This document shows, piece after piece, positions 4,377 through 7,230 of a stretch of 14,986 bases of DNA. A program made the translations under genes and the position numbers. The notes under the pieces were generated by a model. That model was not told the origin of the DNA. It did not search any database and worked only from the letters and a program-made list of their open reading frames with translations. Position 1 is the stretch's first letter. Each line of letters begins with the position of its first letter. The DNA is from a virus (taxonomy: Duplodnaviria > Heunggongvirae > Uroviricota > Caudoviricetes): IMG/VR virus record IMGVR_UViG_2534681835_000019; one strand, 5' to 3'.

Positions 4377-4691
4377 TTAGCATTTTTTTGACCGCGCGTT
4401 TCCGGACGTATTCTGTTCTCCTGTCCCTTTATATCGTCGGAATACCCGCCGCTCTTCAAATCCCATTCCCAACTCAGAATGTAGTCGGTTGACCGCTTGT
4501 TTTATTTCGGTCAGGTTCACCGGTGAAACCGGAGTCCGGCGCGCCTTACGCAAACACTCTGCTCGTTTCTGTGCCGCCACTTTTCTTTTCTGGTCATCAC
4601 TTAGCTGTACCATCACTTTTGCCCATCGTTCAGCTGCTCTCCGGTACAGTCCTTTTTTCTCCAGACATTCTGCCAGGTGATCATGTAGCAT
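4377..4691 (-). CDS. PerC-family (Pch-like) transcriptional activator, putative
   Basis: 104 aa, ATG start with strong SD (GGAGG, 7-nt spacer). The motif LEKKGLYRRAAERWAKVM matches my recollection of the PerC/Pch family signature (..KGLWRRAA.RW..). Family assignment is from memory, not a search. Confidence 0.5.
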   Translation of the reverse strand: MLHDHLAECLEKKGLYRRAAERWAKVMVQLSDDQKRKVAAQKRAECLRKARRTPVSPVNLTEIKQAVNRLHSELGMGFEERRVFRRYKGTGEQNTSGNARSKKC

Positions 4692-5153: not shown

Positions 5154-5621
5154 TCACGGTATACACTGGGTACGGATATATTCCTGTGCTCCTTCCAGTT
5201 GCTTCTGCATTGCCATCAGCCGTTCTCTGAGGATGAAATAATCCCGTTCAGCGGCTTCTGCCAGTCGGGGACCGGTTGCATTATCCACGCCGGAGGTGAT
5301 GGGGGCTTTACGCAAGGAGCCTGGACAGTTGGCGTTGATCCGCAGGCGCTTACGACCAGCGGCAACATCAGCGCGCAGAGTTTCATTTTCAGCTCTCGCA
5401 TCGGCTAATTCCCTCGAGTATCTGGCATCAAGTGCAGCAACATCACGCTGGCGCTGCTGCATATCAGTAATGGTTGCATTTGCCAGCTCCAGCTCACTGA
5501 CTTTTTTATCGCGCTGCTCTTTGTAGGTTATGGCGTTATCACGGTAATGATTCAGCCCCAGACTAAGCGCACCACAGGCCACCAGCAGGGCAATGATGAC
5601 CACGCACAGTACGCGGTTCAT
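5154..5621 (-). CDS. Rz: Spanin inner-membrane subunit (Rz, i-spanin)
   Basis: From ATG 5621: MNRVLCVVIIALLVACGALSLGLNHYRDNAITYKEQRDKK...DVAALDARYSRELADARAENETLRADVAAGRKRL...AERDYFILRERLMAMQKQLEGAQEYI, closely matching recalled lambda Rz. The ORF-track start at 5645 is a TTG extension. Confidence 0.9.
   Translation of the reverse strand: MNRVLCVVIIALLVACGALSLGLNHYRDNAITYKEQRDKKVSELELANATITDMQQRQRDVAALDARYSRELADARAENETLRADVAAGRKRLRINANCPGSLRKAPITSGVDNATGPRLAEAAERDYFILRERLMAMQKQLEGAQEYIRTQCIP
5216..5401 (-). CDS. Rz1: Spanin outer-membrane lipoprotein subunit (Rz1, o-spanin), embedded in Rz in another frame
   Basis: 61 aa, ATG start; MRELKMKLCALMLPLVVSACGSTPT..CVKPPSPPAWIMQPVPDWQKPLNGIIS has a lipobox (VSAC) and proline-rich segment and matches recalled lambda Rz1. 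Confidence 0.85.
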   Translation of the reverse strand: MRELKMKLCALMLPLVVSACGSTPTVQAPCVKPPSPPAWIMQPVPDWQKPLNGIISSSENG

Positions 5622-5622
5622 T

Positions 5623-5724
5623 TCACCACCAGCGTATCTGACCAATGAAATAACCGGAAGCCATAATCACAAACACCAGCCAGATAAGGATGAACTTCCA
5701 GGTGGATAATTTTTCAGCCATCAT
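5623..5724 (-). CDS. Hypothetical 33-aa single-TM peptide between endolysin and Rz
   Basis: Tandem ATG ATG at 5724..5719 preceded by GGGAG (7-nt spacer); MMAEKLSTWKFILIWLVFVIMASGYFIGQIRWW has one hydrophobic helix. Its stop lies 1 nt from the Rz ATG. No homolog recalled. Confidence 0.35.
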   Translation of the reverse strand: MMAEKLSTWKFILIWLVFVIMASGYFIGQIRWW

Positions 5725-5796
5725 TCGAATCTCCCGAATCAGTTTGCTAAAATCAAACACACTTTCTCCTTTGACTTTTCCGGAGTCAGGAAACAC

Positions 5797-5829
5797 AAAA
5801 CCCCACTTGCGGCCAACAAACGGGGTTTT
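5797..5829. terminator. Terminator-like hairpin downstream of the endolysin gene
   Basis: AAAACCCCACTTG-cggccaa-CAAACGGGGTTTT: 13-bp stem with 7-nt loop, followed by a U-rich run on either strand (GUGUUUCC on minus, ACUUUUAUUC on plus). Confidence 0.5.
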
Positions 5830-5918
5830 ACTTTTATTCACTTAGTTTTTGCCAGTTCGCAGGATTTCGTGTTATCCGCCCGTGTGAGCAAACCGCATTT
5901 TTCAGCAAAATATTCTGC

Positions 5919-6452
5919 TTATCTGTCAATTCCCCAGCACGCCAGCGCGCTCTCCTGGTCACGCCGTGAGACCTGACCGTAACAGTTATTTGAGCGAATA
6001 CGGCAGTCTCTGCCACCGTCCTTAATCCACCAGCGAATCGCCTCGCATGCTCCCCTGCGGTCACCAGCATTAATCCGTCTGTAAAACGTCGACGGGAAAC
6101 ACTTACCGGGGCCAATGTTGTACGGACAGAATGACGCAATCCCCGCTTTCTGGGGTTCGGTCAGTGGCACTCTGATGTTTTTCTCCACCCATGCCAGCGC
6201 CTTATCACGTTCAATGGCGTTAACCTGGTCGCATTTTTCCTTCGACAGCTTCATGCCAGGAATCACAGGCTTACCATCCACCATGATGGCACCTCGGCAG
6301 ATGGTCCAGATACCCGCACCATCACGGTATGCCGTGGTGTGGTTACCTTCCTTTTCATCCAGAAACTGGTCGAGAATGTCAGGCGCAGGCGCACCAGCGG
6401 CAATCAGCGCCAGAACGGCAGCCGACAGGCCGTATTTGATTTTGGTGTTCAT
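5919..6452 (-). CDS. R: SAR endolysin (phage-21 R-type lysozyme, GH24/T4-lysozyme-like)
   Basis: 177 aa, ATG start. N-terminal Gly/Ala-rich weakly hydrophobic segment (GLSAAVLALIAAGAPAP) typical of a signal-anchor-release domain, followed by the E-x8-D-x5-T catalytic triad (EGNHTTAYRDGAGIWT). Resembles recalled phage-21 R. Confidence 0.9.
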   Translation of the reverse strand: MNTKIKYGLSAAVLALIAAGAPAPDILDQFLDEKEGNHTTAYRDGAGIWTICRGAIMVDGKPVIPGMKLSKEKCDQVNAIERDKALAWVEKNIRVPLTEPQKAGIASFCPYNIGPGKCFPSTFYRRINAGDRRGACEAIRWWIKDGGRDCRIRSNNCYGQVSRRDQESALACWGIDR

Positions 6453-6494: not shown

Positions 6495-6917
6495 TTATAT
6501 ACGTCCTTTAAGATAAGTCAGTCCTGGATGAAACCAGTAAGCCGGCACTTTTTTAAAGGGCGGGTTGTCAAACTCACGAAGAAGAGCCTCCCGCACAACT
6601 GCATCCTTGTCCGCACCACTGGCCAGCGCTTCAATCTCAGCAGCTATCTGCAGATATCCCATGCAACGACCAATGCACTTCATCAGCCCCTGCTTTTTAT
6701 TGTTCTTCAGGTAATCAATGGCAAATTCAATGAGCACCTCACTATGCTGGTGCGATGGCGGTGTTACTTTTCCATTTTCTGAGATGGTTATTTTCCCAGC
6801 ATCACCGGATACAACAAAGGATGGCCGGTTACACTCCCATTCCAGCTCACTGAAATTATCATTATGAATACTGAAACACTCTGAGAGATTTCTGCTCATC
6901 GCGGCGTTTTTTTTCAT
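6495..6917 (-). CDS. Hypothetical protein inserted between holin and endolysin
   Basis: 140-aa ATG-initiated ORF with no strong SD and lower GC than its neighbours. Its start sits in an A8 tract and overlaps the 3' end of the upstream small ORF (6862..7011). No confident homolog recalled; E. coli Qin ydfR also sits between holin and lysozyme, but similarity is unverified. Confidence 0.5.
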   Translation of the reverse strand: MKKNAAMSRNLSECFSIHNDNFSELEWECNRPSFVVSGDAGKITISENGKVTPPSHQHSEVLIEFAIDYLKNNKKQGLMKCIGRCMGYLQIAAEIEALASGADKDAVVREALLREFDNPPFKKVPAYWFHPGLTYLKGRI

Positions 6918-7014: not shown

Positions 7015-7230
7015 CTAATCTCCCCGGGCAGCCTTGCGACGGTCCTCTTTAATTTTGAAATACAGGTTAGTCAGATACGTCAGCAGGCCAAACAGCAGAC
7101 TCCCCAGCACACCTATCGCCACCCACTGGGACGGAGAGACTTTGTCCAGCAGCTGCAGTAACCAGTATCCCGTCCCCACCGCTGACGTGGTGTATGACAC
7201 ACCTGTTGTGATTTTTTCCATCTGGTACAT
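7015..7230 (-). CDS. S: Class II pinholin (phage-21 S21-type) with dual-start motif
   Basis: 71 aa; [71 protein letters not shown] resembles recalled S21. ATG at codons 1 and 4 is the classic antiholin/holin dual start; two TMDs; SD GGGAGA upstream. Confidence 0.9.

What the first reader, a model, noticed from the sequence alone, without database searches (positions are those of the whole stretch)
5623..5829. 33-aa single-TM ORF with strong SD inserted between endolysin and Rz, preceded by a terminator hairpin
R and Rz are normally adjacent. Here a ~300-bp spacer contains a strong hairpin (5797..5829) and a tandem-ATG ORF with GGGAG at ideal spacing encoding a one-helix hydrophobic peptide ending in WW, whose stop lies 1 nt from the Rz ATG. 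Size and composition resemble small membrane-active peptides (type I toxins, holin/antiholin modulators, spanin accessory peptides), but I recognise no homolog.
Basis: seen in the sequence. Interest (0 to 1): 0.55.

Follow-up and report, generated by a model that had tools for sequence, protein, structure and literature searches.

The report
Antisense-guarded small membrane peptide cassette
The spacer between the phage endolysin and Rz genes holds a real, conserved 45-codon gene for a one-helix membrane peptide that travels between prophages as a unit with a hairpin terminator and a probable antisense-RNA promoter, so it looks like a tightly locked, possibly toxic late gene whose function is still untested.

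Summary
The 33-codon ORF is, however, only the 3' part of a conserved 45-codon frame (5623-5760, minus strand). That frame starts at GTG, behind an AAGGAG Shine-Dalgarno (SD) sequence. It belongs to phrog_6632 (unknown function) and is only sometimes annotated.

Homology across unrelated gene contexts begins at the hairpin and ends at the stop codon, so hairpin plus ORF form one portable cassette. It sits between endolysin and Rz, but also between baseplate genes, after tail fibres and before terminase. It runs in the same direction as the neighbouring late genes wherever those were annotated or called. About 900 of 5,426 complete E. coli genomes carry it.

The hairpin shows strong covariation. 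Synonymous sites in codons 2-13 are almost frozen and spell an invariant extended -10 promoter (TGCTAAnAT) on the opposite strand. This promoter points at the SD and the hairpin.

The geometry copies phage P22 sar/ant and resembles a type I toxin-antitoxin locus. The cassette does not meet the Rfam sar threshold and matches no known toxin family.

No transcript, ribosome-profiling or phenotype data were found. The gene and the hairpin are solid; the antisense RNA and any toxic or lysis role are inferred.

The parts
5623..5760 (-). Conserved 45-codon ORF plus stop, starting at GTG. Product: VFDFSKLIREIRMMAEKLSTWKFILIWLVFVIMASGYFIGQIRWW.
   Evidence: phrog_6632, E 8e-30, 45/45 profile positions. 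PGAP annotates the 45-aa form. 161 loci give 28 distinct proteins, all starting with GTG or TTG. pS 0.81 and pN 0.29 in codons 22-45; other frames have stops or pN/pS of about 1 or more. AlphaFold2 gives helix 4-17 and helix 20-44, pLDDT 85.
5766..5771 (-). Shine-Dalgarno AAGGAG, 5 nt before GTG 5760.
   Evidence: Read from the sequence. GGAG-type motifs occupy the same column in all relatives.
5719..5735 (-). Use of Met14 would give a 32-aa product.
   Evidence: Met14 is present in all 161 loci and in most distant members. A GGAG/GGGG/GAGG motif stays 8-9 nt upstream even where residues 9-10 change. Actual use of this start is untested.
5797..5829 (.). G+C-rich hairpin flanked by an A-tract and a T-tract, i.e. 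an intrinsic terminator-like structure on both strands. The minus-strand tail is TTTTGTGTTT (5800..5791). The plus-strand tail is TTTTACTTTTATT (5826-5838).
   Evidence: Fold. Covariation: 8 of 14 pairs compensatory, 91.5% paired, 0/500 shuffles. Present in front of every family member examined, including Pseudomonas phage and metagenome copies.
5769..5785 (.). Second small stem-loop (5 pairs, 7-nt loop) between the hairpin and the SD. On the plus strand it lies within the anti-SD part of the predicted antisense RNA.
   Evidence: 97.3% paired, 3 of 5 pairs with compensatory changes, 0/500 shuffles for pairing and covariation. The test of which strand carries the structure was ambiguous.
5725..5753 (+). 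Predicted antisense promoter inside ORF codons 3-12: weak -35 TCGAAT (5725-5730), 17-nt spacer, TG (5745-5746), -10 TAAAAT (5748-5753).
   Evidence: TGCTAA[A/T/G]AT is kept in 161 of 161 loci. It is kept as TGnTA...T in distant members with other amino acids and at 40-64% GC. Normalised synonymous entropy is 0.23 in codons 2-13 against 0.79 in codons 22-45, Mann-Whitney p = 8e-6. The position matches P22 Psar inside ant. No transcription start-site data exist.
5760..5838 (+). Predicted antisense RNA of about 75-80 nt. It has a 5' anti-start/anti-SD stretch (CACUUUCUCCUUU), the small stem-loop, then the terminator hairpin and U tail.
   Evidence: Fold -18.6 kcal/mol, z -2.2. RNAalifold consensus with 9 of 18 pairs compensatory. 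The covariance model R1, built from 22 copies including the window's own, scores the window copy at 67.6 bits, which is expected by construction. It also recovers copies that were not used to build it: L176, L173, L175, L182, L183, L185, L186, L187. Existence of the RNA is inferred, not shown.
5830..5918 (-). Stretch after the R stop that lies outside the cassette. The left edge of the cassette is at about 5832-5835.
   Evidence: This stretch continues to match Sakai prophages, which carry ant at the same place. The match ends at the A-tract of the hairpin. In cross-context alignments homology starts at the same point.
5154..5621 (-). Rz (i-spanin), with Rz1 embedded at 5216-5401. It is the downstream neighbour; its ATG lies 1 nt after the ORF stop.
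   Evidence: Pfam Phage_lysis, 1e-46. The 1-nt gap is found in nearly all endolysin-Rz contexts, both E. coli-type and Salmonella-type.
5919..6452 (-). Endolysin R, 177 aa, phage-21 type; the upstream neighbour.
   Evidence: Pfam Phage_lysozyme, 5e-24.

Best explanation
The spacer carries a portable three-part cassette that sits inside antiterminated late operons of lambdoid prophages.

1. An intrinsic-terminator hairpin with T-tracts on both sides.
2. A 45-codon gene, started at GTG, for a peptide with a short amphipathic cytoplasmic helix and one membrane helix. The predicted orientation is N-terminus inside.
3. An extended -10 promoter on the opposite strand, buried in codons 3-6. This promoter would make an RNA of about 75-80 nt that is complementary to the start codon and Shine-Dalgarno sequence and ends at the same hairpin.

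Proposed working:
- In the lysogen, stray rightward transcription stops at the hairpin.
- Any message that gets through is silenced by the antisense RNA and by the weak GTG start.
- After induction, Q-modified polymerase reads through the hairpin, the message outnumbers the antisense RNA, and the peptide is made late, together with the lysis and structural proteins.
- Because it is locked three times over, the peptide is probably harmful to the membrane if made early. It may help or time lysis, as the prophage type I toxin HokW does.
- The conserved Met14 with its own SD may give a second 32-aa form that the antisense RNA does not cover.

Shown: the gene, the hairpin, the cassette boundaries and the nucleotide-level constraint. 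Inferred: the antisense transcript, dependence on antitermination, toxicity, and the second start.
For: The gene is real.
- It matches phrog_6632 over its full length.
- Relatives occur in at least 12 genera and in named phages SPN3UB, SEN34, Rac-SA53, H-19B and Pseudomonas YMC11/02/R656.
- Synonymous sites are saturated while amino acids are kept in codons 22-45.

It is a cassette.
- Homology across unrelated contexts starts at the A-tract of the hairpin and ends at the stop codon.
- The junction with the alternative ant cassette in Sakai lies at the same point.
- In L186 and L187 the upstream gene is divergent, so there the hairpin cannot be that gene's terminator.

The hairpin and the second stem-loop both show covariation.

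The antisense promoter is supported by sequence constraint.
- Synonymous entropy is 0.23 in codons 2-13 against 0.79 in codons 22-45, p = 8e-6. D3 is always GAT, codon 4 always nTT, S5 always AGC, L11 always TTG and R12 always CGA. All 161 loci keep TGCTAAnAT.
- The motif survives amino-acid replacement and GC contents of 40-64%.

The geometry matches the annotated P22 sar RNA, whose promoter lies in ant codons 3-12 and whose terminator lies in the arc-ant spacer. The Rfam sar model gives a full-length sub-threshold match on the predicted strand and coordinates in L009, at 28.6 bits.

The late-operon setting is consistent.
- The cassette runs in the same direction as the annotated or called late genes in the contexts examined.
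- In L187 it lies directly after a PR'-like promoter plus terminator.

The company it keeps fits a toxin-antitoxin reading. Three cassette copies with RWW-ended peptides are interleaved with ParE/RelB and YafQ/RelB pairs in L186.

Precedents exist. hokW-sokW in Sp5 assists phage release (PMC8621323). PasB is an 83-nt, Northern-validated antisense-oriented sRNA that ends at an A/T-flanked hairpin inside a lambdoid tail operon.
Against: - No experimental trace of the antisense RNA or of the peptide was found. The cassette is not among the Hfq-bound EcOnc RNAs of Sakai, but the four Sakai prophages checked carry the ant cassette instead. The one EPEC prophage lysis region checked (PP2) lacks the spacer. 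The peptide was not found in the small-ORF supplements searched.
- The -35 element is weak, at 3 of 6 matches.
- pN is also low in codons 2-13, with pN/pS 0.37 against 0.36 elsewhere. Part of the 5' conservation is therefore protein-level constraint, and the N-terminal helix is conserved as protein in distant members.
- The G-U pair test does not favour the antisense strand for the terminator hairpin: 91.5% paired on the sense strand against 86% on the antisense strand.
- The cassette carries no conserved sense promoter, unlike classical type I toxin-antitoxin loci.
- The Rfam sar threshold is not met. My own model R1 matches only the hairpin of P22 sar, at 12 bits.
- Toxicity is pure inference.
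Confidence: 0.5

Rival explanations
1. Lysis accessory. The peptide is a dedicated part of the lysis cassette, such as a pinholin or antiholin modulator or a helper of the Rz/Rz1 spanin. The hairpin is only a transcript-processing or terminator element between R and Rz.
For: The commonest context by far is endolysin, then cassette, then Rz, with the stop exactly 1 nt before the Rz ATG. This holds in both E. coli-type and Salmonella-type copies and downstream of at least three unrelated endolysin types. A sister variant in O157:H7 (37 aa, also ending AIRWW) occupies the same slot with the same 1-nt junction. Two possible starts recall holin/antiholin pairs.
Against: About 25 loci and the viable phages SEN34 and Rac-SA53 have the cassette between baseplate genes. 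Others have it after tail fibres, in a Pseudomonas phage tail region, or before terminase. There is no match to any holin, antiholin or spanin family in Pfam. Because all these sites lie in the late operon, a lysis-timing role is weakened but not excluded.
Confidence: 0.2
2. A small late membrane protein with an ordinary upstream terminator and no antisense RNA. The frozen synonymous sites at the 5' end reflect only translation signals (internal SD and Met14, an open start region) and a strongly conserved N-terminal helix.
For: The N-terminal motif SK(L/I)I(R/K)E(L/I)RxM is conserved as protein even in distant members. pN/pS is the same in the 5' and 3' parts. GGAG at codons 9-10 fits an internal SD. 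No sRNA has been reported here.
Against: Specific rare codons (CGA, AGC, TTG, GAT) are fixed in 15-17 of 17 divergent representatives while neighbouring helix codons are saturated. The TGnTA...T motif persists when the encoded residues change (DFSK to EFIK, SSK or ISR) and in a 60-64% GC background. The hairpin carries a good T-tract on the antisense side in all members. The layout is the same as in the experimentally known P22 sar.
Confidence: 0.2
3. A lysogenic-conversion or superinfection-exclusion moron that is expressed from the resting prophage, in the manner of HK97 gp15 or Bor.
For: It is inserted between genes that are adjacent in related phages. It is a small inner-membrane peptide, and the slot exchanges with other cargo such as ant.
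Against: No conserved sense promoter exists, since homology begins at the hairpin. A terminator lies directly upstream, the start codon is weak, and a probable antisense repressor is present. All of these argue against expression in the lysogen. There is no PADLOC match.
Confidence: 0.07
4. Not a gene: a decayed remnant of a deleted insert (for example ant) that happens to keep an open frame.
For: Most genome records leave it unannotated.
Against: The frame is conserved across genera with saturated synonymous change. It has a PHROG family of its own. There is no similarity to ant or to the 48-aa ORF that follows ant.
Confidence: 0.02

Closest known systems
Phage P22 sar RNA / ant control (immI region; Rfam RF00262)
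   Same: The antisense promoter lies inside the first ~12 codons of the target gene. The RNA starts at or beside the start codon, covers the SD, has two stem-loops, is about 70-80 nt long, and ends at a hairpin in the intercistronic spacer (P22 annotation). Both promoters share the core TTGCTA of an extended -10. The hairpins are similar in sequence. The sar model gives a full-length 28.6-bit match to the Edwardsiella copy.
   Different: The target is a 45-aa membrane peptide, not the 300-aa antirepressor. The Rfam gathering score of 43 bits is never reached, and the window itself gives no match. My own model matches only the P22 hairpin, at 12 bits. Here the hairpin also has a T-tract in the sense direction, whereas in P22 it does not. 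The RNA has not been observed.
Type I toxin-antitoxin loci (hok/sok, ldr/rdl, zorO/orzO; hokW-sokW of prophage Sp5)
   Same: A peptide of under 60 aa with one membrane helix. A cis-antisense RNA is predicted over the translation start. Several paralogous copies lie among type II toxin-antitoxin pairs in one locus. hokW-sokW shows that such a pair in an Stx prophage can assist lysis (PMC8621323).
   Different: The cassette has no sense promoter of its own. It is embedded in, and co-directional with, late operons. There is no sequence match to Hok, Ldr, TisB, Ibs or Fst families in Pfam. Toxicity is untested.
P22 sieB/esc with sas RNA (an antisense RNA that switches translation to an internal start)
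   Same: One frame has an upstream start and a conserved internal Met with its own SD. The predicted antisense RNA would cover only the upstream start. The review line 'Sas RNA regulates alternative translation' comes from PMC5415839. The mechanism itself is from my own knowledge of Ranade and Poteete 1993.
   Different: There is no homology. Use of Met14 is unproven, and the products here are tiny peptides.
PasB sRNA of EPEC prophage PP6
   Same: It is 83 nt long and oriented against the flanking tail genes. It ends at a hairpin flanked by an A-run and a T-run in an intergenic gap of a lambdoid late operon. It has been validated by Northern blot and RIL-seq (an RNA-RNA interaction sequencing method).
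   Different: No sequence match to the window. It lies next to no comparable membrane-peptide ORF. It acts in trans with Hfq.
Morons in the sense of Juhala/Hendrix
   Same: An extra unit between genes that are adjacent in related phages. It is exchanged with other cargo at the same junction.
   Different: The classical moron has its own promoter upstream and a terminator downstream. Here the terminator is upstream and the only promoter-like element points backwards.

Membership tests
phrog_6632 (PHROGs, unknown function) | Significant full-length match to the family profile | tested here: met
   E 8e-30, residues 1-45 on profile positions 1-45 of 45. Two diverged relatives also match, at 4e-23 and 6e-24.
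Type I toxin-antitoxin system | Small hydrophobic peptide (under ~60 aa) with a membrane helix | tested here: met
   45 aa. AlphaFold2 gives helix 20-44, pLDDT 85. The hydrophobic stretch W21-I42 is read from the sequence.
Type I toxin-antitoxin system | Antisense RNA that pairs with the toxin message | tested here: inconclusive
   A conserved extended -10, a terminator and stem-loop covariation are all present. No transcript data were found.
Type I toxin-antitoxin system | Toxin gene has its own promoter | tested here: not met
   Cross-context homology begins at the hairpin, and no conserved sense promoter is present. The scan found none in the window.
Type I toxin-antitoxin system | Peptide is toxic when over-produced and the RNA neutralises it | not testable with these tools
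   This needs expression experiments.
Type I toxin-antitoxin system | Sequence membership in a known toxin family (Hok, Ldr, TisB, Ibs, Fst and others) | tested here: not met
   No Pfam, NCBIfam or PADLOC match at E <= 1 other than noise.
sar RNA (Rfam RF00262) | Covariance-model score at or above the gathering score of 43 bits | tested here: not met
   No match in the window at E <= 10. The best relative scores 28.6 bits; others score 21-28 bits, some on the other strand.
sar RNA (Rfam RF00262) | Promoter inside the 5' codons of the target; RNA covers the SD and ends at an intercistronic hairpin | tested here: inconclusive
   The motif positions match the P22 annotation: the -10 begins 4 nt inside the ORF here against 3 nt in P22. 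The transcription start has not been mapped.
sar RNA (Rfam RF00262) | Target gene is the antirepressor ant | tested here: not met
   The target is the 45-aa peptide, and no ant similarity exists in the window.
Holin / antiholin | Match to a holin family profile | tested here: not met
   There is no holin match for the peptide, whereas the true holin at 7015-7230 matches Phage_holin_2_1 at 8.5e-33.
Holin / antiholin | Obligate position within lysis cassettes | tested here: not met
   Baseplate, tail-fibre and terminase-proximal contexts also occur.
Holin / antiholin | Two in-frame starts giving a longer and a shorter product | tested here: inconclusive
   GTG1 and the conserved Met14 each have an SD. 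No translation data exist.
Moron (Juhala/Hendrix definition) | Lies between genes that are adjacent in related phages | tested here: met
   R and Rz overlap in Qin, EPEC PP2 and P22.
Moron (Juhala/Hendrix definition) | Own promoter upstream and terminator downstream | tested here: not met
   The terminator is upstream. The stop codon abuts the next gene.

The most novel reading that the evidence does not exclude
This is a previously undescribed family of 'late-lock' cassettes present in roughly one in six complete E. coli genomes, including Stx phages such as H-19B. A sar-like antisense RNA and a two-way terminator keep a membrane-active peptide silent in the lysogen. By covering only the GTG start, the RNA also sets the ratio of a 45-aa form to an internally started 32-aa form. 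On induction this ratio would tune membrane collapse, lysis timing and therefore phage and toxin release.
Probability: 0.25. Interest if true: 0.75.

Novelty: new variant of a known kind. Interest (0 to 1): 0.6.

Why it matters
If the model holds, several things follow.
- A widespread gene that is mostly left unannotated would gain a defined regulatory logic. It sits in the late operons of Shiga-toxin phages and other lambdoid prophages.
- The 40-year-old P22 sar mechanism would turn out to be a portable control module used for other cargo.
- There would be a new candidate membrane toxin or lysis-timing factor that could affect phage burst and toxin release.
- Even without a known function, the locus is a clean example of a coding sequence whose first dozen codons are constrained by a promoter on the other strand.
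- The synonymous-mutation experiment proposed in the next steps can test the antisense-promoter part of the model directly.

Tried and rejected
**Family and structure searches that found nothing named**
- Pfam, NCBIfam, PADLOC and PDB sequence searches of the peptide gave only noise.
- Rfam on the window gave only sub-threshold rimP-leader and L10-leader matches, driven by the hairpin.
- A profile search of 1.84 billion representative proteins found only 40 clusters, so this is a small family. That library carries no names.

**Literature and supplement searches that found nothing on this locus**
- Searches for WP_000459342 and for 'between R and Rz' returned nothing relevant.
- The peptide sequence is absent from the supplements of the Sakai small-gene ribosome-profiling paper and of the Enterobacteriaceae microproteome preprint.
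- The Hfq-bound EcOnc sRNA list of Sakai has no entry in an R-Rz spacer. EcOnc10/11/12 lie downstream of Rz. Sakai Sp9, Sp10, Sp12 and Sp15 turned out to carry ant plus a 48-aa ORF instead of this cassette, so that data set cannot test the model.
- EPEC RIL-seq: PasA-D are elsewhere, and the one EPEC prophage lysis region checked (PP2) has no spacer.

**Homology ideas that were rejected**
- The 48-aa ORF that follows ant is not related to this family by profile comparison.
- PasA, PasB, EcOnc11 and ant have no similarity to the window.

**Alternative ORF readings that were rejected**
- The 72-aa reading from GTG 5841 is rejected. It runs through the hairpin, and its extra part is not conserved across contexts.
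- The plus-strand 51-aa ORF and the antisense CDSs annotated in CP-1639 are rejected on substitution pattern.
- The plus-strand promoter that the scanner flagged at 5638-5667 lies in the non-conserved part of the ORF and is not kept in relatives.

**A test that did not decide**
- The G-U/A-C asymmetry test of which strand carries the RNA structures was inconclusive.
Full report
**1. What is in the window**

The late region of a lambdoid prophage lies on the minus strand. In order it holds:
- an S21-type holin (7015-7230),
- a 140-aa ORF with no family (6495-6917),
- a phage-21-type endolysin R (5919-6452),
- a 297-nt spacer,
- Rz (5154-5621) with embedded Rz1 (5216-5401),
- a PerC-family gene,
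- Nu1 and the large terminase.

The 361 bases around the spacer are 100% identical to O111 STEC chromosomes. They are 99% identical to Stx2c phages and to H-19B.

**2. Checking the observation**

The single-sequence fold is only modestly better than shuffles (z = -2.05). Comparative data are needed, and they are decisive (section 4).

R and Rz overlap, with no spacer, in K-12 Qin, in EPEC PP2 and in P22. The spacer is therefore an insertion.

**3.

NCBI's PGAP pipeline annotates a 45-aa 'hypothetical protein' (WP_000459342.1) in some genomes. It starts at GTG 5760, behind AAGGAG.

- A search of 5.8 billion proteins returned 36 relatives, most of them 45 aa long, from E. coli, E. albertii, E. 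fergusonii and Salmonella.
- Scans of genome and viral contig collections added Citrobacter, Edwardsiella, Yersinia, Izhakiella, Sodalis, Brenneria, Symbiopectobacterium, Serratia, Providencia, Dryocola and Trabulsiella.
- They also added more than 150 viral contigs.
- Named phages with the gene are SPN3UB, FSL SP-016, SEN34, Rac-SA53 and two Pseudomonas phages.

In 161 loci there are 28 distinct proteins. All start with GTG or TTG.

The family equals phrog_6632, whose profile is 45 positions long and whose function is unknown. Pfam, NCBIfam, PADLOC and PDB give nothing. A full HMM scan of 1.84 billion representatives finds only 40 clusters.

The frame is coding. In codons 22-45, pS is 0.81 (saturated) and pN is 0.29. 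Other frames have stops or a pN/pS of about 1 or more.

AlphaFold2 predicts a helix at residues 4-17, a break at Pro19, and a helix at residues 20-44, with pLDDT 85. Five of the six K/R residues lie at or before residue 22. By the positive-inside rule I infer that the N-terminus faces the cytoplasm.

**4. Hairpin plus ORF form one portable cassette**

When copies from unrelated surroundings are aligned, similarity begins at the A-rich tract just 5' of the hairpin. It ends at the stop codon.

The sequence after R in the window continues to match Sakai prophages, which carry ant at this site. That match ends exactly at the hairpin's A-tract.

Contexts differ widely:
- between endolysin and Rz, downstream of at least three unrelated endolysin types;
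- between the baseplate V-like and W-like genes in SEN34-type and Rac-SA53-type phages (about 25 loci);
- after tail-fibre genes;
- in the tail region of a Pseudomonas phage;
- just before terminase.

Wherever the neighbouring late genes were annotated or called, the cassette points the same way as they do.

In L187 it follows a PR'-like promoter (TTTACA-17-TATCAT) and a terminator. That is the start of a Q-dependent late operon.

A 213-nt query covering only the cassette is at least 80% covered in 900 of 5,426 complete E. coli genomes.

**5. RNA structures**

The hairpin is kept by compensatory change.
- Of 14 pairs, 91.5% of cells are paired.
- Eight pairs have changes on both sides.
- 0 of 500 shuffles reach the observed values.
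- Slid controls give 38-63% pairing.

A second 5-pair stem-loop between the hairpin and the SD is 97% paired, with 3 pairs compensatory.

Every member, down to copies at 40% and 64% GC, keeps the hairpin with T-runs on both sides.

A G-U versus A-C asymmetry test did not show which strand carries the structures. The terminator favours the sense strand and the small stem favours the antisense strand.

**6. A promoter on the other strand**

In 17 representatives below 93% identity, synonymous sites are almost frozen in codons 2-13.
- D3 is GAT in 16 of 16.
- Codon 4 is nTT in 17 of 17.
- S5 is AGC in 17 of 17.
- L11 is TTG in 15 of 15.
- R12 is CGA in 17 of 17.

Synonymous sites in codons 22-43 are near saturation. 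Normalised synonymous entropy is 0.23 in codons 2-13, 0.49 in codons 14-21, and 0.79 in codons 22-45. The Mann-Whitney p value for the first against the last is 8e-6.

Read on the plus strand, codons 3-6 spell TTTGCTAAAATC. This is an extended -10 promoter: TG at 5745-5746 and TAAAAT at 5748-5753. All 161 loci keep TGCTAA[A/T/G]AT.

Distant members keep TGnTA...T although their residues differ (EFIK, SSK, ISR instead of DFSK). The Pseudomonas phage copy keeps GAT TTT AGC in a locus of about 60% GC.

Transcription from this promoter would start at about 5760. It would run through the complement of the start codon and SD (CACUUUCUCCUUU) and end at the hairpin's plus-strand U-tail near 5835. The product would be 75-80 nt long.

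Caveats:
- The -35 is weak.
- pN is also low in this segment.
- The N-terminal motif is conserved as protein in distant members.

Part of the constraint is therefore on the protein.

**7. The known system it copies**

The P22 genome record annotates the following:
- sar RNA at 15021-15090 (minus strand);
- its promoter at 15097-15125, inside ant codons 3-12;
- its terminator in the arc-ant spacer.

The layout is the same here. The -10 begins 4 nt inside the ORF, against 3 nt in P22. Both promoters share the core TTGCTA. The hairpins resemble each other in sequence.

The Rfam sar model gives a full-length match on exactly the predicted strand and span in the Edwardsiella copy. The score is 28.6 bits against a gathering score of 43.
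- Other copies give 21-28 bits, some on the opposite strand.
- The window gives nothing.
- A covariance model built from 22 cassette copies matches only the P22 hairpin, at 12 bits.

The cassette therefore works like sar, but membership of the sar family is not shown.

sar RNA is known to inhibit antirepressor synthesis (review PMC5415839; the primary papers are cited from my own knowledge).

**8. Relatives and neighbours that bear on function**

My covariance model found three cassette copies in one Enterobacterales genome locus (L186). Each precedes a small membrane ORF ending in AIRWW (44, 58 and 51 aa). They are interleaved with ParE/RelB and YafQ/RelB toxin-antitoxin pairs.

An O157:H7 strain has the same hairpin, stem-loop and SD after R. 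These are followed by an 8-codon ORF and a 37-aa AIRWW peptide, again ending 1 nt before Rz.

The control region is thus combined with several peptide variants.

Two experimentally studied cases show that the proposed parts exist in such prophages.
- hokW-sokW is a type I toxin-antitoxin pair in the Stx2 prophage Sp5 that assists phage release (PMC8621323).
- PasB is an 83-nt sRNA oriented against the tail genes of an EPEC prophage. It ends at a hairpin flanked by an A-run and a T-run.

**9. Most likely mechanism, with shown and inferred steps marked**

Shown:
- a conserved gene for a one-helix peptide;
- a conserved terminator-type hairpin directly upstream;
- cassette mobility within late operons;
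- nucleotide-level constraint that matches an antisense extended -10 promoter.

Inferred:
- the antisense RNA is made and blocks the GTG start;
- the hairpin stops non-antiterminated transcription, so the peptide is made only from Q-modified late transcripts;
- the peptide is harmful if made early and acts on the inner membrane late in infection;
- Met14, with its conserved GGAG-like motif 8-9 nt upstream, is a second start that the RNA would not cover. This recalls the sas RNA switch in P22 sieB/esc.

I put the whole model at about 0.5. The reality of the gene and the hairpin I put above 0.9.

**10. Rivals**

- A dedicated lysis accessory is favoured by the dominant R-Rz context and the fixed 1-nt junction with Rz. 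It is weakened by the non-lysis contexts.
- A plain late membrane protein with no antisense RNA remains possible until a transcript is seen.
- Expression from the resting prophage, as in conversion or exclusion morons, is disfavoured by the upstream terminator and the lack of a sense promoter.
- A non-coding remnant is excluded.

**11. What could not be found**

I found no transcription start-site, Northern, ribosome-profiling or proteomic evidence for either strand of this locus. The well-studied strains I could check either lack the cassette or carry the ant alternative.

**12. Verdict**

It is best filed as a new variant of known kinds: sar-type antisense control joined to a type I-toxin-like peptide. 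It is widespread in lambdoid prophages and mostly unannotated. The experiments needed to test it are simple.

Noticed in passing
window 6495-6917 (-): A 140-aa ORF lies between the holin and the endolysin, with no Pfam or NCBIfam family. At the same position related prophages have a 345-nt 'YdfR family' gene (O157:H7 N8B7-2, Sakai), or a frame that PGAP marks as a frameshifted pseudogene.
   Followed up: partly
L172 14749-14895 and 14895-15464 (Sakai Sp15); the same arrangement in Sp9, Sp10 and Sp12: An alternative cargo occupies the same R-Rz slot: an antirepressor gene followed by a 48-aa one-helix ORF (ECs_5741 type) that ends 7 nt before Rz. This ORF is unrelated to the 45-aa family by profile comparison.
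   Followed up: partly
L189 2001-2252 (E. coli O157:H7 N8B7-2): The same hairpin, stem-loop and SD as in the window are followed by an 8-codon ORF and a 37-aa peptide, MKGIEVETPASLDLTRAAAFAIRIVAIAVLVWAIRWW (WP_000675931.1). Its stop is 1 nt before Rz. An antisense TATACT lies between the two ORFs.
   Followed up: partly
L186 2415-2635, 3119-3379, 4645-4884 (GCA_900156195.1): Three copies of the hairpin/antisense element each precede a small ORF ending AIRWW. They are interleaved with ParE/RelB-like and YafQ/RelB type II toxin-antitoxin pairs.
   Followed up: partly
window 5623-5631 (-) and the Rz start at 5619-5621: The last codons, TGG TGG TGA, form a GGUGGUGA stretch directly before the Rz AUG. 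They could double as the Rz ribosome-binding site. RWW is nevertheless also kept in baseplate contexts, where the next gene has its own AAGGAGG.
   Followed up: no
window 10871-13287 (+): A complete IS66-family element (HTH_Tnp_1, TnpB_IS66 and DDE_Tnp_IS66 ORFs) is inserted upstream of a TerB-domain gene (10352-10783) and the NanS-p-type esterase (7936-9873). This is the region where Stx phages carry stx.
   Followed up: partly
window 9960-9990 (-): A 31-nt match (87% identity) to the terminator end of the EPEC sRNA PasD2 lies just upstream of the esterase gene. PasA, PasB and EcOnc11 have no match in the window.
   Followed up: partly
L178 2762-2844 (EPEC E2348/69 PP6): The validated sRNA PasB lies between the tail genes for assembly protein I and J, oriented against them. 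It ends at a hairpin flanked by an A-run and a T-run, and carries a CUCCUUCAC stretch opposite an AGGAG on the sense strand. The layout is analogous to the cassette studied here.
   Followed up: partly
L005 8349-8437 (K-12 Qin, between ynfS and the Q-like gene ydfT): There is a weak match (20.8 bits, E 0.005) to my covariance model of the cassette RNA. It is probably only a terminator hairpin.
   Followed up: no
window 4377-4691 (-): A PerC-family transcriptional activator gene lies between Rz and the terminase genes. Other relatives carry bor there.
   Followed up: no
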